From: a virus
Taxonomy: Duplodnaviria > Heunggongvirae > Uroviricota > Caudoviricetes
Reading direction: 5' to 3' (one strand)
Length of the DNA stretch: 20,834 bases
IMG/VR virus record: IMGVR_UViG_2778261058_000016
Span: 1-20,834 of that record
Part shown: positions 1-11,942 of the stretch, piece after piece
How the letters are laid out: the number at the start of each line of letters is the position of its first letter
Position numbering within the stretch: position 1 is the stretch's first letter
Made by a program: the position numbers and the translations under genes
Notes under the pieces: model-generated
What the model was told of the DNA's origin: nothing
Database searches by the model: none
Seen by the model: only the letters and a program-made list of their open reading frames with translations

Positions 1-1182
1 GTGCTCACAGATACTAAGTTACGAAAGTCGCTCGGAAAGCGCAGGGAGAAGGTTGAGGTTCTCTCTGATTCAAACGGACTGAATGTGCGTCTAAGCATAA
101 CCGGTTCTATCACATTCTTCTATCGGTATCGCTGGCTGGGCAAGCCTGTGCAGTTAAGCATTGGTGACTATCCAACTATTTCACTCTCTCAGGCGAGAGA
201 CAGAAGACAGCAGTTCAGAGCGTGGTTGAGCGAGGGGTATGATCCCCGGCAGAAAGTGCTGGTGGAGAAGGCTGAAAGAATAGAAGCGCTGACAGTCGAT
301 GAGGCCTATGAGTACTGGGTGAAGCATTACTGTATCCCGGAGGGGCTCATTAAAATTGATGCGAACGGTAAAAGCTTCAAAAAGCACATTAGCCCGCGGC
401 TAGGGAAGGCTATTGTGGACCAGACAGTGAAGGCGAACTGGCTTGAGGTTTTCGATGCAATGGGGAGGAGTGTCATATCAGGTGAGATGCTGTCTCTGAC
501 CAAGCGTGCTTTCCGGTTCTGCCACAACAGGGGAGTAATCAAAACCAATCCACTGGAGTCGTTACGAAAATCGGATGTCGGTATAGCAGCGAAGATGAAG
601 GAGAGGCGGCTTTCAGATAGTGAGATAAAGCAGGTGTGGGATACTCTTTTCTCTCTGCCTCCCTCTCAACAACTGGTAATCAGGTTCATGATTCTAACCG
701 GATGCCGCGCCGCAGAAATAAGAAAGTCGAGATGGGAGTGGTTCGATTTCAAAGAAAGGTCCTGGACTGTGCCGGCAGAGGATTATAAGACCGGTAAAAC
801 TATTCGTCGTGCGTTGCCGGATACTGCGGTCAGGCTTCTGCAAGAGCATCAACGCGGATCAATCACTAAGCACGTTCTGACTCCAGCACAGTTCCGGGAT
901 AAAGAAGATGTCCCACCTGGGCAGACGCTTGTCTCGACGTACTCAATGCAGGTAGTGCGTAAGAACGGAATGAAGGAGTGGTCATTACATGATTTGCGGA
1001 GAACGGTGGCCACGCGCCTGTCCGAGCTTGGCGCTCCACCACACGTTATAGAAAAGTTGCTCGGACATCAGATGGGCGGGGTTATGGCCAGATACAACCT
1101 TCATGACTATATGGACGATCAGCATGAATGGCTGGATATCTGGCAGAAGCATTTGCAGGAGATTATTGGGTATCCCCTTTAG
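1..1182 (+). CDS. int: Tyrosine recombinase / phage integrase, P4-type, with N-terminal arm-binding region; may lack 1-2 codons at the window edge
   Basis: 393-aa ORF from GTG at position 1. N-terminus LTDTKLRK...FFYRYRW resembles the arm-binding domain of P4-like integrases. C-terminus has HDLRRTVATRL (H-x-x-R) and a downstream Tyr in MARYNLHDY, consistent with the catalytic residues of tyrosine recombinases. Confidence 0.85.
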   Translation: MLTDTKLRKSLGKRREKVEVLSDSNGLNVRLSITGSITFFYRYRWLGKPVQLSIGDYPTISLSQARDRRQQFRAWLSEGYDPRQKVLVEKAERIEALTVDEAYEYWVKHYCIPEGLIKIDANGKSFKKHISPRLGKAIVDQTVKANWLEVFDAMGRSVISGEMLSLTKRAFRFCHNRGVIKTNPLESLRKSDVGIAAKMKERRLSDSEIKQVWDTLFSLPPSQQLVIRFMILTGCRAAEIRKSRWEWFDFKERSWTVPAEDYKTGKTIRRALPDTAVRLLQEHQRGSITKHVLTPAQFRDKEDVPPGQTLVSTYSMQVVRKNGMKEWSLHDLRRTVATRLSELGAPPHVIEKLLGHQMGGVMARYNLHDYMDDQHEWLDIWQKHLQEIIGYPL

Positions 1183-1378
1183 CAAAGTTGACCTTGTCTT
1201 CCCATGACTTGATTTCTGACTCACGCCAGCGCTTCGGATTTCCGGGGATGGTTGGTTTCGGGAATGGGCATGAAAAGCTGGATGGCATACGTGCGGGAGT
1301 GCTCCAGAAATAGAGCGTGCTGCGCGATATTTTGTAGCGCGCAAGGATTTCGCTTGTAACCAGGATGCTGTCATTCAT
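1163..1378 (-). CDS. AlpA-family (Phage_AlpA / MerR-like HTH) regulator or excisionase-like protein, 71 aa
   Basis: I retranslated the minus strand: MNDSILVTSEILARYKISRSTLYFWSTPARMPSSFSCPFPKPTIPGNPKRWRESEIKSWEDKVNFAKGDTQ. The pattern SRSTLY...FPKP...WRESEI..W matches AlpA/Vis-type proteins. ATG at 1378 sits 6 nt after a GGAGA Shine-Dalgarno; the ORF track's 101-aa version (to 1468) is probably an upstream over-extension. The 3' end overlaps the integrase 3' end by 20 nt (convergent). Confidence 0.65.
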   Translation of the reverse strand: MNDSILVTSEILARYKISRSTLYFWSTPARMPSSFSCPFPKPTIPGNPKRWRESEIKSWEDKVNFAKGDTQ

Positions 1379-1387
1379 CTGTGATCT

Positions 1388-1419
1388 CCAGAAAAAGAGC
1401 GCCCGGCGCGGGGCCGGGC
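1388..1419 (-). terminator. GC-rich hairpin (7-bp stem GCCCGGC / GCCGGGC, 5-nt loop) followed on the minus strand by CTCTTTTTCT; intrinsic terminator and/or the sub-terminal hairpin of the IS right end
   Basis: Perfect inverted repeat at 1401..1419 with an A-run at 1392..1396 on the plus strand, which is a T-run downstream of the hairpin on the minus strand. It lies about 85 nt past the tnpB stop and immediately before the alpA-like RBS. Confidence 0.45.
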
Positions 1420-1620
1420 AAAATGGGGGATAACTGAGCAGTGCTTTCGCACCCAATAGCCAGCTCATAACTGGCTATCAGTTGCTTGACATCCTCCCCG
1501 TCCTAAAGGAAGGGGATTCCTACAGCTAGACGGCGATGCCCCGCCGCGAGAATGTTCTTTGCGGCGTTCACGTCGCGGTCATGAGTGGTTCCGCACTCAC
1601 AACAAGTCCATTCTCTTATT
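1391..1620 (-). ncRNA. Putative omega-RNA (TnpB guide RNA) overlapping the tnpB 3' end and the IS right end
   Basis: In IS200/IS605 elements the omega-RNA is encoded across the 3' end of tnpB and the right end. This region holds three hairpins, one spanning the tnpB stop at about 1496..1515, plus those at 1456..1478 and 1401..1419. Extent is a guess and no covariance model was applied. Confidence 0.25.
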
Positions 1621-2594
1621 CGCAGGCCTGCTCTACCTTTCGGACTGTTGGCGGAGATAGCCCCGCAACACGAACAAGCTTGGGTGGAATAACTTTCGTT
1701 GACCACTTCAAACACCACTGACCGCGCAATCGCTTTATATTCCAGTTGTGTTTTGAGCATGAACCAGCCAGCGTCCAAAATGCTTTTTGCCATTTTGGTT
1801 TTAACCAGTTTCTTACTGCTCGCGTCGCCTACGAATATTGCCGCATGGCTGTTAACCAGCGCCGTGCTGTACTTGTGCAGGGCATCTTTGCGGCGGTTCT
1901 TAATTTTGGCGTGTATGGCGCGTACACGGGCTTTTTTGTTTGCACGCTGTGCCTTTCCTAATGCAGGCTCCAGATCTCGATAGAATCTACCGGCAATCAG
2001 CGGATCACCTTCTGACGGGGTGGCGTAGTCTTTCAGCCCTAAATCGATACCCACGGCGGAAGTGGCCGTTGATGGGACAGTTTCGACCTCTACGCAAACA
2101 TTGAAGTACCAGCGTCCACGGCTGTCTTCTGAAAAGCTTCCAGCACGGAATTTAAATCCTCCCAAGCCGTAGCTATCCCAGACATTAAAAATCCTGCCAG
2201 CGAACCGCACCGCGCCATTTTTCCAGACAGCGCTGCCTATTTTAAACGGCACCCAACCCAACGAACGGCGAGATCCCCCACTGACTCGCCAGCGTAAGCG
2301 AGAGCGTTTAAATTGCTTCCGTGCCTTGCCGTGAATTGCTGCGATTTCCTGTACGGTATGGCTGGGGATGGTATACCCGCGCTCTTTTCGCTCTTTAAGG
2401 AGCGGTTTCTGAACATCAAACGCCGATAGCCATTGCGGTTTTTGCGCGCCAAAAAAGCCAGCGTTGCCGTATGCTGCGCTGGTTATCTCGTTTGCCAGAT
2501 TAAAGATCTGATTGACCTCAAAGGCCATCTGCCGCAAAACGGCTGCGTGCTTGTCTTTAATTCGGACAGATAGTGTTTTGATCTGAATGTTCAT
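1503..2594 (-). CDS. tnpB: TnpB, RNA-guided endonuclease of the IS200/IS605 family (RuvC-like domain plus zinc finger)
   Basis: About 363 aa from the ATG at 2594 (MNIQIKTLSV...). RuvC-I-like GIDLGLKDY, and a C-terminal CSCCGAIS...CCECGTTHDRDVNAAKNI (CxxC...CxxC zinc finger with RuvC-III HDRD/NAAKNI). The ORF track's start at 2663 adds 23 unlikely N-terminal residues. Confidence 0.85.
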   Translation of the reverse strand: MNIQIKTLSVRIKDKHAAVLRQMAFEVNQIFNLANEITSAAYGNAGFFGAQKPQWLSAFDVQKPLLKERKERGYTIPSHTVQEIAAIHGKARKQFKRSRLRWRVSGGSRRSLGWVPFKIGSAVWKNGAVRFAGRIFNVWDSYGLGGFKFRAGSFSEDSRGRWYFNVCVEVETVPSTATSAVGIDLGLKDYATPSEGDPLIAGRFYRDLEPALGKAQRANKKARVRAIHAKIKNRRKDALHKYSTALVNSHAAIFVGDASSKKLVKTKMAKSILDAGWFMLKTQLEYKAIARSVVFEVVNESYSTQACSCCGAISANSPKGRAGLRIREWTCCECGTTHDRDVNAAKNILAAGHRRLAVGIPFL

Positions 2595-2684
2595 GGTCGT
2601 ATGTACATATAATGTGTTGATGTTCAGTTGATCGTCGTTATTTGGCGGGATGTCACCCGCCACACGGCGATGCGCTGATGCTGT

Positions 2685-2954
2685 TTACTTCCGCCAGGCG
2701 AAGCTAATTGGCTCCGGCGTAATCCACAGGTGGCGCATGTTCGCCACGTTCACCACATCATAATCCCGCGGGTAAATCTCCACGGCATCCCGATCCCCAT
2801 AGCCAACGGCTGACTTTATCTCCTGCAATGCATCCCAACTGATGCCATCCTTCCACCGGCCAGAGCTGCCAATGCTGGTGGTGTTCACCGTCAGGCGAAT
2901 AACACCGTTCTCTTCCTGAAACTCCTGAACAAGAAAGTAAGAGTTAGCCCACAC
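2685..2954 (-). CDS. Hypothetical protein, 89 aa, leftward, immediately upstream of the IS left end
   Basis: Protein-like composition (MWANSYFLVQEFQEENGVIRLTVNT...EIYPRDYDVVNVANMRHLWITPEPISFAWRK) and no conflicting gene on the other strand. The start is a GTG and the frame stays open upstream without start codons, so this may be the C-terminal remnant of a longer truncated gene. No family recognised. Confidence 0.35.
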   Translation of the reverse strand: MWANSYFLVQEFQEENGVIRLTVNTTSIGSSGRWKDGISWDALQEIKSAVGYGDRDAVEIYPRDYDVVNVANMRHLWITPEPISFAWRK

Positions 2955-3010
2955 GTTGCTCCGCTTGGGGTCGTGGCATCGTACCGGCCATTGCGATTCC
3001 GGTAACCGCG

Positions 3011-3910
3011 ATGTTCCGGGATATCGAGAAGCGATATATCGGCATCAAGCGAGCGCTGAAATCTCTGTTCGACCAGCGCCTTACCGGGCGTGAGCGCGAG
3101 GTTAACAGCCATAACTGGCACTTCCTTTGTCATGACCACGGCGCGGATATGCGCCTCTACCAGGTAAACGCCGGCAAGTTCATCTACGACATGTCGGCGC
3201 AGGAACTGGCGGACCTGCTGGAAGCGGTGCAGGCCATTCTCGACGATTACCTGCTGGATGGTGGCGAGCAAAATCTCTGGGCGATGGATTACGTCGTCGC
3301 AGAAGCGCAGCGCGGCACGCTTGAGGCATTCAATAACCTCTCGCAACAGTCGCAGGTGTATGCCAGTCAGACGACGCTGCAGCAGCTTTTAAGCAGTCCC
3401 GGTCATCTTAATCAGGTGGCAGCGGCAAGGCTGACAACGTTCAGTGACTGGAAGGTCATCAGCGATACAGCCCGCGGCGACCTGACCAACATCATCACCG
3501 ATGCGGTCGCGCGCGGGGTGAACCCTCGCGAGACGGCCAGCGTAATCAGCAAGCGCCTCGATGTGTCGATGTCGAAGGCAAAGACCATCGCTCAGACTGA
3601 GCAGGTCGGCGCACTGCGGCAGGCACAATGGAACGAAACCGACTGGGCTGCTGACCGGCTGGGGCTGAATACCGGCCTACTGTGGTTGTCAGCGCTAAAA
3701 CCAACGACGCGAACCTGGCATGCCAGCCGCCACGGCAAGGTCTACACCACCGAAGAGATTCGGGACTTCTACGCCGAGAACGGCAACCGGTACAACTGCT
3801 ACTGCAGCCAGATCCCAGTGCTGCTCAACGACGACGGCAGCATCTTCAATGAGGGGCTGGCTGAGAAACTGGCGAAAGAGAGGAAAGCTTGGAAATCCGA
3901 GTCGGAGTGA
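3011..3910 (+). CDS. Phage head morphogenesis protein (Mu F-like / SPP1 gp7 family minor head protein)
   Basis: 299 aa. The segment KAKTIAQTEQVGALRQAQWNETDW...TRTWHASRHGKVYTTEE fits the Mu F-like signature (TIA-TE ... W ... R-x-H-x-G-K). First start in frame is ATG 3011, with an in-frame stop at 2945..2947 upstream. Confidence 0.7.
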   Translation: MFRDIEKRYIGIKRALKSLFDQRLTGREREVNSHNWHFLCHDHGADMRLYQVNAGKFIYDMSAQELADLLEAVQAILDDYLLDGGEQNLWAMDYVVAEAQRGTLEAFNNLSQQSQVYASQTTLQQLLSSPGHLNQVAAARLTTFSDWKVISDTARGDLTNIITDAVARGVNPRETASVISKRLDVSMSKAKTIAQTEQVGALRQAQWNETDWAADRLGLNTGLLWLSALKPTTRTWHASRHGKVYTTEEIRDFYAENGNRYNCYCSQIPVLLNDDGSIFNEGLAEKLAKERKAWKSESE

Positions 3911-3949
3911 TATCATCATGTAAATGATAAAGTTGCTTAAGGGTGAGCA

Positions 3950-4465
3950 ATGAGCAGTGTAACTCCGGCAGAAGTCGGTTCATTCTTTTTATCTCTAGTT
4001 GTTCCAATCACCACTGGGGTTGTGGCAGCAGGATTTACTGCATTTTTCGCTCTGAATCGATTTTACAAAGAAAAATGGTGGGAGAAGAAACATGCTGCGT
4101 ACAATCAATTAATTGATAAATTATTTGAAATCAAAGCAATTTATTCCCACGCCTCAGATTTTTACGAGGCTGAATACAATGCTGGTATGTATGGTAGGCC
4201 GCCGCCGAAAGGGTCTGTTGATTGGAATACATTCCATCAAATAAAAGCGCAACTCCATCGGTTTTATGTGCTCGCACCAATCTCTCTAAGCAATAATACA
4301 AGGGATTTGCTCAATAATTTCTTCAAGCAGGACGCTGATTCCGATCATAGTGTTTACGAAGAGGGTTACCCAGATTTTGTGGCATACAATGATATGACGA
4401 TTGCGACCCAGCAACTTATTGATGCCATTGTCTTGGACGCTGAAAAAGAACTTAAATTTAAATAA
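3950..4465 (+). CDS. Membrane-anchored hypothetical protein, 171 aa (N-terminal TM helix plus soluble domain); AT-rich moron
   Basis: RBS AAGGGTGAG upstream of ATG 3950. N-terminal hydrophobic helix FFLSLVVPITTGVVAAGFTAFFAL followed by a charged/aromatic soluble region. Visibly lower GC than the flanking phage genes, and followed by its own terminator. No family recognised. Confidence 0.6.
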   Translation: MSSVTPAEVGSFFLSLVVPITTGVVAAGFTAFFALNRFYKEKWWEKKHAAYNQLIDKLFEIKAIYSHASDFYEAEYNAGMYGRPPPKGSVDWNTFHQIKAQLHRFYVLAPISLSNNTRDLLNNFFKQDADSDHSVYEEGYPDFVAYNDMTIATQQLIDAIVLDAEKELKFK

Positions 4466-4480
4466 CCTCAGAGCTCCTGA

Positions 4481-11309: not shown

Positions 11310-11942
11310 ATGGAAAGACAGTACGCAGTACTTCTTGACGCAGGGTTCTTGCGCCGAAAATTAGGTACTCAGGCAGCACCAATGACAGCTCAAAATGTCG
11401 AAGATTTAGTTAATAAAATTAAAGCACGAGCTGAGTTATTAGGGATGCGGTTGTATCGTGTGTTTTATTACGACGCTGAGCCTTTCACGGGTACTAAGAC
11501 ACATCCTATATCCAACGCTGTTATTAACTTTGGCGCTACACAAATGGCCATTGATTGTAATACATTGTTAGATGAGCTTAAGGTCAAGCCTTTTTTTGCT
11601 GTGCGCCTAGGGGAACTCAATTTTAGAGGGTGGAAGGTTTCTGATGCTGCTCTTCAGTCAGGTGCAGGAGGGACGGCAACAATTAATGCTCATAATGTTT
11701 CTCCCAATCTTCAGCAGAAAGGTGTGGATATGAGGATCGCATTAGATATCTCATCTATGACTTTAAAAAACCAAGCAGACGTTTTTTGCTTGGTAACAGG
11801 TGACTCAGATTTTGCACCCATCATCAAATTTGCGAGATCTGAAGGAAAGCAAGTATTCACTTATACTCTCGGTCATAGAGTCAAACCATCTTTGCCTATT
11901 CATTCTGACCTCCATATCCCTGAAACGTACGCTAATTTGTAA
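11310..11942 (+). CDS. NYN-domain (PIN-like, LabA/YacP-type) putative ribonuclease, 210 aa; AT-rich moron
   Basis: N-terminal first-strand motif YAVLLDAGFL (acidic residue in the first beta strand), central KGVDMRIALDI, and CLVTGDSDFAPIIKFARSEGKQVF (GDSDF), matching conserved acidic motifs of NYN/PIN-like nucleases. Visibly much lower GC than the flanking chaperone and tape-measure genes, with its own promoter-like element and a downstream terminator. Confidence 0.75.
   Translation: MERQYAVLLDAGFLRRKLGTQAAPMTAQNVEDLVNKIKARAELLGMRLYRVFYYDAEPFTGTKTHPISNAVINFGATQMAIDCNTLLDELKVKPFFAVRLGELNFRGWKVSDAALQSGAGGTATINAHNVSPNLQQKGVDMRIALDISSMTLKNQADVFCLVTGDSDFAPIIKFARSEGKQVFTYTLGHRVKPSLPIHSDLHIPETYANL

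What the first reader, a model, noticed from the sequence alone, without database searches (positions are those of the whole stretch)
1163..1378. Hidden AlpA-family regulator or excisionase gene, convergent with and overlapping the integrase 3' end
The ORF track shows only a 101-aa minus-strand ORF here, but the downstream 71 codons start at an ATG with a strong GGAGA RBS and carry the AlpA/Vis signature (SRSTLY...FPKP...WRESEI..W). Its last 20 nt overlap the end of the integrase gene on the opposite strand, so transcription of either gene is antisense to the 3' end of the other. A GC-rich hairpin plus T-run (1388..1419, minus strand) sits just upstream of its RBS and could attenuate expression, or could be the IS end. 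Together with the adjacent IS this arrangement may control or cripple excision.
Basis: partly seen in the sequence, partly recalled or inferred. Interest (0 to 1): 0.45.

Follow-up and report, generated by a model that had tools for sequence, protein, structure and literature searches.

The report
Phi80-type prophage excisionase gene
The 71-codon reading frame is a real, conserved excisionase gene of the kind first described in phage phi80, lying tail-to-tail with its integrase as in phi80, so it is ordinary; here it sits in a prophage remnant that has lost the promoter that would normally switch it on.

Summary
A 71-aa ORF (1163-1378, minus) has a GGAGA ribosome-binding site 6 nt before its ATG. 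It overlaps the integrase stop by 20 nt, and a hairpin plus T-run lies just upstream. It is not hidden: RefSeq annotates it as WP_053265484.1.

It is a phi80-type excisionase. It is 60% identical to phi80 Xis and matches PHROG 1553 at E=8e-30. The neighbouring Int is 52% identical to phi80 Int. The convergent, overlapping int/xis layout occurs in phi80 and in every relative examined. dN/dS is 0.03-0.05, and the 101-aa long form is out of frame in relatives.

Only a distant relationship to AlpA is seen, by profile comparison and by predicted fold.

The hairpin is not the IS end, because the TnpB element stops at about 1486. It is an intrinsic terminator within a conserved leader that precedes excisionase genes of several unrelated families in more than 120 viral contigs.

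Excision is more likely crippled by a 24-kb deletion (junction 3001-3008) than by the IS or the overlap. That deletion removed the repressor region, where pL would lie, plus the replication, lysis and packaging genes. Interest is low; the leader is the only unexplained part.

The parts
1..1182 (+). int: complete tyrosine integrase (393 aa, GTG start at base 1), phi80 type
   Evidence: Pfam Phage_integrase E=1.5e-20 and Arm-DNA-bind_3 E=2.5e-19. 52% identity to phi80 Int over the full length, E=7e-157. PGAP annotates the same CDS.
1163..1378 (-). xis: 71-aa phi80-type excisionase (recombination directionality factor), identical to RefSeq WP_053265484.1
   Evidence: PHROG 1553 E=8.4e-30; phi80 Xis falls in the same PHROG, E=7e-34. 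60% identity to phi80 Xis. dN/dS 0.03-0.05. AlphaFold model with pLDDT 82.7 has strand-helix-helix-wing-helix topology. Best solved-structure match is TorI 1Z4H at probability 0.92; viral matches are HTH, excisionase and AlpA-named proteins.
1163..1182 (.). 20-nt tail-to-tail overlap of the int and xis coding ends
   Evidence: Coordinates. The same 20 nt overlap is found in L002, L003 and L006. The overlap is 4 nt in phi80 and Kp4864-1, 37 nt in an Stx2a phage and 104 nt in a Klebsiella phage.
1385..1389 (-). Shine-Dalgarno GGAGA, 6 nt before the xis ATG; it is the last conserved piece of the leader (CTGGAGA)
   Evidence: Sequence. CTGGAG is conserved in front of unrelated excisionase genes.
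1390..1420 (-). Intrinsic terminator: 8-bp G+C-rich stem (1420-1400) followed by CTCTTTTTCT
   Evidence: Terminator scan and RNA fold. A hairpin plus T-run is kept in 119 of 120 copies of the leader, with at least four different stem sequences and freely varying loops.
1421..1485 (-). Upstream part of the leader. Its first roughly 50 nt (1485 to about 1435) are nearly invariant: stem-loop 1 (13 bp, 1481-1453) and stem-loop 2 (GUGC-GAAA-GCAC, 1452-1441). A variable linker (about 1434-1421) follows.
   Evidence: Identical across prophages with different int/xis modules and different upstream genes. The exact 39-mer occurs in more than 120 IMG/VR contigs. The whole leader folds with z = -3.3. No Rfam family matches.
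1486..2684 (-). TnpB-only IS200/IS605-type element: tnpB CDS 1503-2594 (or 2663 as annotated), right end at about 1486, left end just after the DUF7694 stop codon
   Evidence: Pfam Cas12f1-like_TNB E=8.3e-22 and OrfB_IS605 E=9e-13. IS-free relatives resume homology at 1485. A weak HgcC (omega-RNA-like) match covers 1473-1664, 19 bits, E=0.24. The two ends share GCATCGCCGT... (D1). Full-length in 10 of 5426 E. coli genomes, one copy each; in the seven of those whose neighbourhood was examined it sits at this same prophage position.
2685..2954 (-). DUF7694 gene, the last intact early-left gene before the IS
   Evidence: Pfam DUF7694 E=4.2e-16; PGAP annotation.
3001..3008 (.). Junction of a roughly 23.98-kb internal deletion (GGTA microhomology). 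It joins a truncated DUF4222 gene (minus strand) to a 5'-truncated Mu-F-like minor head gene (plus strand, ORF 3011-3910).
   Evidence: The window matches the intact prophage of strain 23CRST004 over 1-3008 and again from 3001, with 23,981 bp missing between the two matches. The missing DNA holds the XRE repressor, cro-like gene, replication genes, nin region, Q, lysis genes, terminase and portal.

Best explanation
The ORF at 1163-1378 (minus) encodes the excisionase (Xis, recombination directionality factor) of a lambdoid prophage whose integration module is of the phi80 type. The prophage is inserted at a 17-bp site at the 3' end of yciB.

By homology, Xis is a small winged-helix DNA-binding protein. 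It would bind the att arm beside the integrase and turn Int-catalysed recombination from integration to excision.

The layout is the phi80 one:
- int reads inward, away from the attachment site. In phi80 a possible promoter, pI, is annotated just upstream of int.
- xis is the last gene of the leftward early operon and reads toward int, so the two genes end tail-to-tail.
- A conserved intrinsic terminator lies immediately before the xis ribosome-binding site.

Inferred regulation: xis would be made only when transcription from the early leftward promoter reads through that terminator on induction, while int is expressed independently.

In this window the system is probably inert. A 24-kb deletion has removed the repressor region, where the early promoter would lie, and every lytic function. 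xis is left behind a truncated gene, a TnpB insertion element and the terminator, with no recognisable promoter.

What is shown and what is inferred:
- Shown: gene identity, homology, purifying selection, gene layout, terminator conservation, IS boundaries and the deletion.
- Inferred: DNA binding, directionality control, dependence on read-through, and present silence.
For: Family assignment:
- PHROG 1553 'excisionase', E=8.4e-30; phi80 Xis is in the same PHROG.
- 60% identity to phi80 Xis, E=7e-27. The same Xis is annotated as excisionase in mEpX1, mEp237 and HK225.
- Int is 52% identical to phi80 Int over its full length.

Layout:
- The phi80 records show convergent xis/int with a 4-nt overlap, attP upstream of int, and a possible int promoter pI.
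- The convergent overlap is seen in all eight modules examined.

Function of the family: phi80 Int plus Xis is used experimentally to excise DNA flanked by phi80 attL/attR (PMC2532685).

The gene is under selection and correctly delimited:
- dN/dS 0.03-0.05, and the long form is out of frame in relatives.
- The ORF is intact in L006.

Fold: AlphaFold model pLDDT 82.7. The nearest solved structure is the excisionase TorI, followed by MerR-type winged helices. Viral matches are HTH, excisionase and AlpA-named proteins at probability up to 1.0.

Terminator: found by scan. It is retained in 119 of 120 leader copies with at least four alternative stems.

Genomic context:
- An intact relative and the deletion are documented.
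- No sigma-70-like promoter is found in 900-3100 on either strand.
- The integration site was mapped by comparison with the empty K-12 site.
Against: - No experiment on this protein exists; its function rests on 60% identity to phi80 Xis.
- Pfam and NCBIfam do not recognise it. Phage_AlpA scores 10.3 bits against 21. Xis_Gifsy_1 scores 16.5 bits against 60.
- Sequence searches of the PDB find nothing.
- Fold matches have weak E-values (best 1.6e-3), as is usual for a 71-residue protein.
- The antitermination system of this phage was not identified, so the read-through model is an analogy with lambda (PMC2951348).
- The promoter scan is a crude consensus search. A weak promoter in the IS or the leader cannot be excluded.
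- attL and attR lie outside the window, so whether this copy could still excise is unknown.
Confidence: 0.85

Rival explanations
1. It is an AlpA-type transcriptional activator, which switches on the integrase gene as AlpA does for intA in CP4-57, rather than an architectural excisionase.
For: A profile comparison with E. coli K-12 AlpA aligns the whole domain: hhalign probability 63%, E=7.2e-5, 27% identity, with the same insertion before FPK. One RefSeq record names the gene 'AlpA family transcriptional regulator'. Several viral fold matches carry the AlpA name.
Against: Pfam Phage_AlpA is far below its cutoff for every family member; the best E-value among 32 members is 0.14. The close, significant relatives are phi80 Xis and PHROG 1553 excisionases. 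The gene is convergent with int, at the end of the early operon. It is not next to the int promoter, which in phi80 lies on the far side of int. The two roles are not exclusive: TorI both directs excision and represses intS (PMC2951348).
Confidence: 0.1
2. The tail-to-tail overlap is itself a regulatory device. Convergent transcription of int and xis would give antisense RNA or polymerase collision that sets the Int:Xis ratio.
For: The convergent orientation with overlapping ends is conserved in all eight phi80-type modules examined. No terminator-like site is found between the two genes in the window, so the transcripts should overlap.
Against: The overlap length is not conserved: 4, 20, 37 and 104 nt. 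That fits gene packing better than a specific antisense element. The phi80 record annotates a putative leftward terminator inside the 3' end of int. No transcript data are available.
Confidence: 0.2
3. In this window the gene is a stranded relic with no present function. It is intact only because the deletion that silenced it is recent.
For: A 23.98-kb deletion removed the repressor region, where the early promoter would lie, and all lytic genes. An independent deletion with a different junction exists in strain A14. No promoter-like site lies upstream, and a terminator sits in front of the gene. The window is 99.8% identical to the intact relative over 1-3008, so there has been little time for decay.
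Against: This concerns only this copy. The family is under strong purifying selection. Cryptic prophages can keep working int/xis pairs: KplE1 lacks its repressor module yet still excises with IntS and TorI (PMC2951348). A related superinfecting phage could supply Xis, or induce it, in trans.
Confidence: 0.5
4. The true product is the 101-aa ORF starting at the ATG at 1468.
For: It is the ORF reported by the mechanical ORF list. Some gene callers produce 100-107-aa versions in metagenomes.
Against: The upstream ATG is out of frame with xis in L002, L003 and L006. Its sequence is the invariant non-coding leader, which is read in different frames in different relatives. A terminator lies inside the extension. 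No ribosome-binding site precedes 1468, whereas GGAGA precedes 1378.
Confidence: 0.02
5. The hairpin plus T-run at 1390-1420 is the end of the insertion sequence.
For: It lies within about 100 nt of the tnpB stop codon, and IS200/IS605 ends carry hairpins.
Against: IS-free relatives (L002, L003, L005, L017-L021) have the same sequence from 1485 down to the xis start. The element's end is GTCAA|G at about 1486, directly after an omega-RNA-like hairpin. The hairpin occurs in more than 100 contigs; only 7 of 120 copies are immediately preceded by the element's right-end sequence.
Confidence: 0.02

Closest known systems
Phage phi80 Xis and Int (GenBank X04051 and NC_021190; also phages mEpX1, mEp237, HK225)
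   Same: The Xis proteins are 60% identical and fall in the same PHROG (1553). The Int proteins are 52% identical. xis and int are convergent with overlapping 3' ends. xis is the last gene of the leftward early operon. By genome context, attP would lie upstream of int here as it does in phi80.
   Different: The overlap is 20 nt rather than 4 nt. The attachment site differs: a 17-bp core at the 3' end of yciB, not att80 between kch and yciI (PMC11148124); the phi80 core sequence is absent. phi80 has only about 40 nt between the upstream gene and xis and lacks the long conserved leader. Here a TnpB element and a 24-kb deletion lie upstream.
TorI / IntS of the cryptic prophage KplE1 (CPS-53) and phage HK620
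   Same: Both are small winged-helix directionality factors. TorI (1Z4H) is the best solved-structure match to the model. In both systems the integrase is adjacent to attL and reads inward, uncoupled from the excisionase gene (PMC2951348). KplE1 is also a defective prophage.
   Different: No detectable sequence relationship: BLASTP E=0.11 and hhalign probability 0.1%. In KplE1 torI sits at the opposite prophage end (attR), not tail-to-tail with int. A TorI-type gene does occur behind the same leader and TnpB element in strain L73.
AlpA of CP4-57 (Pfam PF05930 Phage_AlpA)
   Same: Same size and the same predicted winged-helix topology. There is a distant profile match over the whole domain, including the insertion before the FPK motif.
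   Different: The match is below the Pfam threshold. AlpA is a transcriptional activator of intA and lies elsewhere in its element, not at the end of a lambdoid early operon.
Lambda Xis / Int
   Same: xis is the distal gene of the leftward early operon, reached in lambda by antiterminated pL transcription (PMC2951348). It plays the same directionality role.
   Different: In lambda, xis and int are on the same strand, overlap head-to-tail and are co-transcribed. Here they are convergent. No significant sequence match was seen to any solved structure, a set that should include lambda Xis.

Membership tests
phi80-type excisionase (PHROG 1553) | Significant sequence similarity to phi80 Xis over the whole protein | tested here: met
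   PHROG 1553 E=8.4e-30 covering residues 3-64 of 71. BLASTP against phi80 Xis E=7e-27, 60% identity over 60 residues. phi80 Xis hits the same PHROG at E=7e-34.
phi80-type excisionase (PHROG 1553) | Encoded convergently with, and overlapping the 3' end of, a phi80-type tyrosine integrase | tested here: met
   20-nt overlap with an Int that is 52% identical to phi80 Int. The phi80 layout is shown.
phi80-type excisionase (PHROG 1553) | Directs Int-dependent excision (attL x attR) and binds the att arm | not testable with these tools
   Only indirect support: phi80 Int/Xis helper plasmids excise attL/attR-flanked DNA (PMC2532685).
AlpA family (Pfam PF05930 Phage_AlpA) | Score at or above the Pfam gathering threshold (21 bits) | tested here: not met
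   10.3 bits, E=0.69. 11 of 32 family members match at all, best E=0.14. None of the 44 homologue clusters has a precomputed Pfam domain.
AlpA family (Pfam PF05930 Phage_AlpA) | Detectable homology to E. coli AlpA by profile comparison | tested here: inconclusive
   hhalign probability 62.8%, E=7.2e-5, 60 columns, 27% identity.
Excisionase / MerR-like winged-helix superfamily | Strand-helix-helix-wing-helix fold | tested here: met
   AlphaFold model pLDDT 82.7 with elements E5-7, H8-15, H19-26, E50-52, H53-68. Foldseek: TorI probability 0.92, then BldC, BmrR, CarH and the GIsul2 excisionase. BFVD hits reach probability 1.0 and TM 0.65-0.69. E-values are weak (1.6e-3 or worse).
Rho-independent terminator (feature at 1390-1420) | G+C-rich hairpin followed directly by a T-run on the transcribed strand, conserved as a structure | tested here: met
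   Scan hit. 119 of 120 leader copies keep a 5-8-bp stem plus T-run, with at least four unrelated stem sequences. Termination in vivo was not tested.
   The hairpin is present in IS-free alleles L002, L003, L005 and L017-L021. The IS right end maps to about 1486.

The most novel reading that the evidence does not exclude
The leader in front of xis is the part that is not understood. It runs from 1485 to 1385 on the minus strand. It consists of a nearly invariant block of about 50 nt with two stem-loops, a structurally conserved terminator and a shared Shine-Dalgarno sequence.

The leader sits immediately after the stop codon of the last early-left gene. It precedes excisionase genes of at least five unrelated families in lambdoid prophages of Escherichia, Enterobacter and Salmonella. 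It has no Rfam family and no literature match.

The most novel reading not excluded is that it is a functional RNA. Two candidate roles are a 3'-end-derived small RNA of the early operon and a cis-acting processing or antitermination element. Either would gate excisionase synthesis independently of which excisionase follows. The leader also doubles as the recombination joint at which int/xis modules are swapped.

The resident TnpB element abuts it exactly. Its guide RNA would therefore be predicted to read into the invariant block.
Probability: 0.3. Interest if true: 0.55.

Novelty: already known. Interest (0 to 1): 0.13.

Why it matters
It matters little for biology at large. The gene is a routine member of a recombination module described for phi80 in the 1980s, and the exact protein is already in RefSeq under a generic name.

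Practical value:
- The annotation can be sharpened from 'helix-turn-helix transcriptional regulator' to 'phi80-type excisionase'. The gene is missed in some phage records.
- The Int/Xis pair recognises a site at the 3' end of yciB that differs from att80. It could therefore serve as an additional orthogonal integration/excision tool of the CRIM type.
- The window is a clear example of prophage decay. The recombination genes are intact, but the regulatory and lytic core is deleted.

The conserved leader before xis is the one element that could repay further study.

Tried and rejected
- Pfam and NCBIfam on the 71-aa and 101-aa forms: no AlpA or Xis model reaches threshold.
- Sequence and profile searches of the PDB: only chance hits, to SARM1 and gp41.
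- Direct and profile comparison with TorI: no relationship.
- Search for the phi80 attP core in the related loci: absent, so the attachment site is different. A common-substring search between the annotated attL and attR intergenic stretches failed because the core lies just outside one of them. Comparison with the empty K-12 site solved this.
- Exact search for the deletion junction in one-genome-per-species contigs: no hit, so the source strain was not identified.
- Rfam on 1-3200 and on the leader alone: nothing near any gathering score. AgvB scores 13.4 bits against 56 and SorX 17.4 against 46.6; both reflect only the terminator.
- Full-text search for the leader sequence: no paper.
- Attempt to fix the left IS boundary from IS-free relatives carrying DUF7694: those relatives have another gene after DUF7694. 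The boundary is therefore only bracketed between 2684 and about 2650.
- The Lula/phi80 paper held no information on int or xis.
- Considered and rejected: the 101-aa form, the hairpin as the IS end, and the IS as the cause of a defect. The IS is present in otherwise complete prophages.
Full report
**What is there.** The window opens exactly at the GTG start of a 393-aa tyrosine integrase (1-1182, plus strand). Pfam gives Phage_integrase E=1.5e-20 and Arm-DNA-bind_3 E=2.5e-19. On the opposite strand the mechanical ORF list shows one 101-aa ORF, 1163-1468. Inside it an ATG at 1378 opens a 71-codon frame, preceded by GGAGA at 1389-1385 with a 6-nt spacer. The int stop codon is at 1180-1182 and the xis stop codon at 1165-1163, so the coding ends overlap by 20 nt. 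A terminator-like site lies on the minus strand: an 8-bp stem at 1420-1400 (7 G-C pairs) followed by CTCTTTTTCT.

**The gene is real, and the short form is the product.**
- Three diverged alleles from E. coli prophages at the same chromosomal site were compared. They carry 23-38 synonymous and only 3-21 non-synonymous differences, giving dN/dS of 0.03-0.05.
- In the one close relative where PGAP left the gene unannotated (L006, 91% DNA identity), the ORF is intact.
- The upstream ATG at 1468 lies 90 nt before the xis ATG in the window, but 89, 88 and 91 nt before it in the three relatives. The 101-aa form is therefore an accident of this allele.
- Across 32 homologues, conservation begins at the MND/DEI position.

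**The gene is not hidden in RefSeq.** The identical CDS is annotated as WP_053265484.1, 'helix-turn-helix transcriptional regulator', in at least seven complete E. coli genomes. An eighth genome calls it 'AlpA family transcriptional regulator'.

**What family it belongs to.**
- Pfam Phage_AlpA does not appear at E<=0.1. At a permissive cut it scores 10.3 bits (E=0.69) against a gathering score of 21.
- Only 11 of 32 family members touch the model at all, best E=0.14.
- None of the 44 homologue clusters found among 5.8 billion proteins carries any Pfam domain.
- NCBIfam gives only a weak Xis_Gifsy_1 match: 16.5 bits against a cutoff of 60.

The phage-specific library is decisive: PHROG 1553, 'excisionase', E=8.4e-30 over residues 3-64. 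A translated search of 50,697 phage records finds 51 hits. They include phi80, mEpX1, mEp237 and HK225, where the gene is annotated xis or excisionase. They also include the 1986-era record X04051, 'phi 80 int-xis region'. The protein is 60% identical to phi80 Xis (E=7e-27), which falls in the same PHROG. The neighbouring integrase is 52% identical to phi80 Int over its full length (E=7e-157).

The relationship to AlpA is distant. A profile of the family aligns with E. coli K-12 AlpA over the whole domain at 27% identity, probability 63%, E=7e-5. TorI gives nothing by sequence.

An AlphaFold model (pLDDT 82.7) has the strand-helix-helix-wing-helix topology of excisionases. Its best solved-structure match is TorI (1Z4H, probability 0.92), followed by MerR-type DNA-binding domains and the GIsul2 excisionase. 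In the viral structure library it matches HTH, excisionase and AlpA-named proteins at probabilities up to 1.0. All these E-values are weak, as expected for 71 residues.

**The convergent overlap is the family's normal layout.** In phi80 the record shows, in order: the attP core, a possible int promoter pI, int, and then xis on the other strand overlapping int by 4 nt. xis is the last gene of the leftward early operon. The same tail-to-tail arrangement was found in every relative checked:
- 20 nt in three E. coli prophages.
- 4 nt in phi80 and in Klebsiella phage Kp4864-1.
- 37 nt in an Stx2a phage.
- 104 nt in a Klebsiella phage whose Xis has a long C-terminal tail.

The orientation is conserved but the overlap length is not. 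Gene packing therefore explains the overlap more simply than a dedicated antisense mechanism, although convergent transcription must occur.

An integrase adjacent to attL, reading inward and uncoupled from the excisionase gene is a described paradigm (KplE1 IntS/TorI; PMC2951348). That phi80 Int plus Xis excises attL/attR-flanked DNA is routine laboratory practice (PMC2532685).

**Integration site.** Comparison with the empty K-12 locus shows a 17-bp duplication at the 3' end of yciB, between yciA and yciB. This is close to att80 but distinct from it. att80 lies between kch and yciI (PMC11148124), and the phi80 core sequence is absent here.

**The hairpin and the IS.** The TnpB gene (1503-2663 as annotated) has Cas12f1-like_TNB E=8.3e-22 and OrfB_IS605 E=9e-13. 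It belongs to a TnpB-only element of about 1.2 kb.
- IS-free relatives resume homology with the window at 1485...TGACG|CAACTGATAGCC in them, against ...GTCAAG|CAACTGATAGCC here.
- A weak HgcC-type (omega-RNA-like) match ends at that point.
- The two ends share a GCATCGCCGT motif.
- The full-length element occurs once per genome in 10 of 5,426 E. coli genomes. In the seven whose neighbourhood was examined it sits at this same prophage position, including otherwise complete prophages.

The hairpin at 1390-1420 therefore lies outside the element.

The hairpin is part of a leader of about 100 nt (1485-1385) with the following parts:
- A nearly invariant block of about 50 nt, forming a 13-bp stem-loop and a GUGC-GAAA-GCAC stem-loop.
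- A variable linker.
- The terminator.
- The motif CTGGAGA, which supplies the Shine-Dalgarno sequence.

Eleven copies from prophages with different int/xis modules and different upstream genes align with the first block identical. The exact 39-mer occurs in more than 120 IMG/VR contigs, and in Enterobacter and Salmonella phages. HK639 keeps the first stem-loop only.

Of 120 copies, 119 retain a hairpin plus T-run. The stems take at least four different sequences (GCCCGGC/GCCGGGC, GCCGCC/GGCGGC, GCCCTCC/GAGGGC, GCCCCG/CGGGGC) and the loops vary freely. This is the signature of selection on a terminator structure.

The genes that follow belong to PHROGs 539, 2907, 1553, 66 (TorI type) and 4745. 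The leader is therefore a portable terminator-plus-SD cassette at the joint where recombination modules are exchanged. The leader folds better than shuffles (z=-3.3). It matches no Rfam family and no paper contains its sequence. Its invariant part remains unexplained.

**Likely regulation (inferred).** A conserved intrinsic terminator sits directly before the xis ribosome-binding site, at the end of the early leftward operon. This implies that Xis is made only from transcripts that read through terminators, as lambda pL transcripts do after N modification (PMC2951348). Int would be made independently. The antitermination system of this phage was not identified.

**State of this copy.** The window is 99.8% identical to the complete prophage of strain 23CRST004 over 1-3008, and matches it again from 3001. 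Between the two matches 23,981 bp are missing, with GGTA microhomology at the junction. The missing DNA contains the rest of the early-left operon, the XRE repressor and cro-like genes, replication genes, the nin region, Q, lysis genes, terminase and portal. The junction fuses a truncated DUF4222 gene (minus strand) to a 5'-truncated Mu-F-like minor head gene (plus strand, 3011-3910). Head and tail genes follow to the end of the window.

Strain A14 carries an independent deletion of the same prophage type, with its junction inside tnpB. No sigma-70-like promoter was found between 900 and 3100.

xis in this window thus sits behind a truncated gene, an insertion element and a terminator, with its natural promoter gone. 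It is most likely silent. The remnant is immobile unless Xis is supplied or induced in trans. This deletion is the plausible cause of crippled excision, not the overlap or the IS.

**Verdict.** It is partly wrong: the gene is not hidden in RefSeq, it is not a Pfam AlpA member, the hairpin is not an IS end, and the arrangement is not unusual. The gene is a routine member of the phi80 Xis family in a decaying prophage. Interest is low. The conserved leader in front of it is the only element that may hold something new.

Noticed in passing
window 1385-1490 (minus strand): A conserved leader cassette. A nearly invariant block of about 50 nt with two stem-loops starts right after the upstream gene's stop codon (TGACG|CAACTG...). 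A structurally conserved terminator and a shared CTGGAGA Shine-Dalgarno sequence follow. It precedes excisionase genes of at least five unrelated families. It occurs in more than 120 IMG/VR contigs and in 40 of 5426 E. coli genomes. No Rfam or literature match was found. Changes in the 3' arm of stem-loop 2 are G-U compatible on the xis-sense strand.
   Followed up: partly
window 3001-3008: Junction of a 23,981-bp deletion relative to the intact prophage of strain 23CRST004, with GGTA microhomology. It fuses a truncated DUF4222 gene to a truncated Mu-F-like minor head gene. It removes the repressor region, replication, Q, lysis, terminase and portal genes. Strain A14 has an independent deletion with its junction inside tnpB.
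   Followed up: yes
window 1486-2684 (minus strand): A TnpB-only IS200/IS605-type element. Its right end is GTCAA|G, directly after an omega-RNA-like hairpin (weak Rfam HgcC hit at 1473-1664). The predicted guide would be the first 16-20 nt of the invariant leader. IS-free phages carry TGAC immediately before that sequence, so the element might target IS-free relatives. The full-length element is found once per genome in 10 E. coli genomes, and at this same prophage position in the seven whose context was examined.
   Followed up: partly
window 2594-2663 (minus strand): The annotated TnpB start (GTG at 2663) is only about 20 nt inside the outermost possible left boundary (2684), in what is probably the element's non-coding left end. 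The ATG at 2594 (MNIQIKTL...) is a more plausible start.
   Followed up: no
L010 5960-6000 (just upstream of window base 1) and L008 4400-4440 (phi80): Repeated GTGTACA motifs lie immediately before the int start codon, both in this prophage type and in phi80. A further copy lies near attR. They may be Int arm-type or operator sites, which would hint at integrase autoregulation as in KplE1.
   Followed up: no
L010 5810-5826 and 30441-30457; L012 1859-1875: The attachment core is a 17-bp duplication at the 3' end of yciB, between yciA and yciB. It lies about 1 kb from the classical phi80 site (kch/yciI) but is distinct from it.
   Followed up: yes
L002 (strain MB20) 3102-4479: Mosaic joint between int and xis. 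The MB20 integrase is 98.5% identical to the window's at the protein level, but its Xis is only 82% identical. Recombination has therefore occurred at or near the 20-nt overlap.
   Followed up: no
window 11310-11942 (plus strand): An ORF sits between the tail assembly genes and the tape-measure gene. Its counterpart in strain A14 is annotated as an NYN-domain protein. It looks like a possible moron or defence-type cargo gene inside the tail operon.
   Followed up: no
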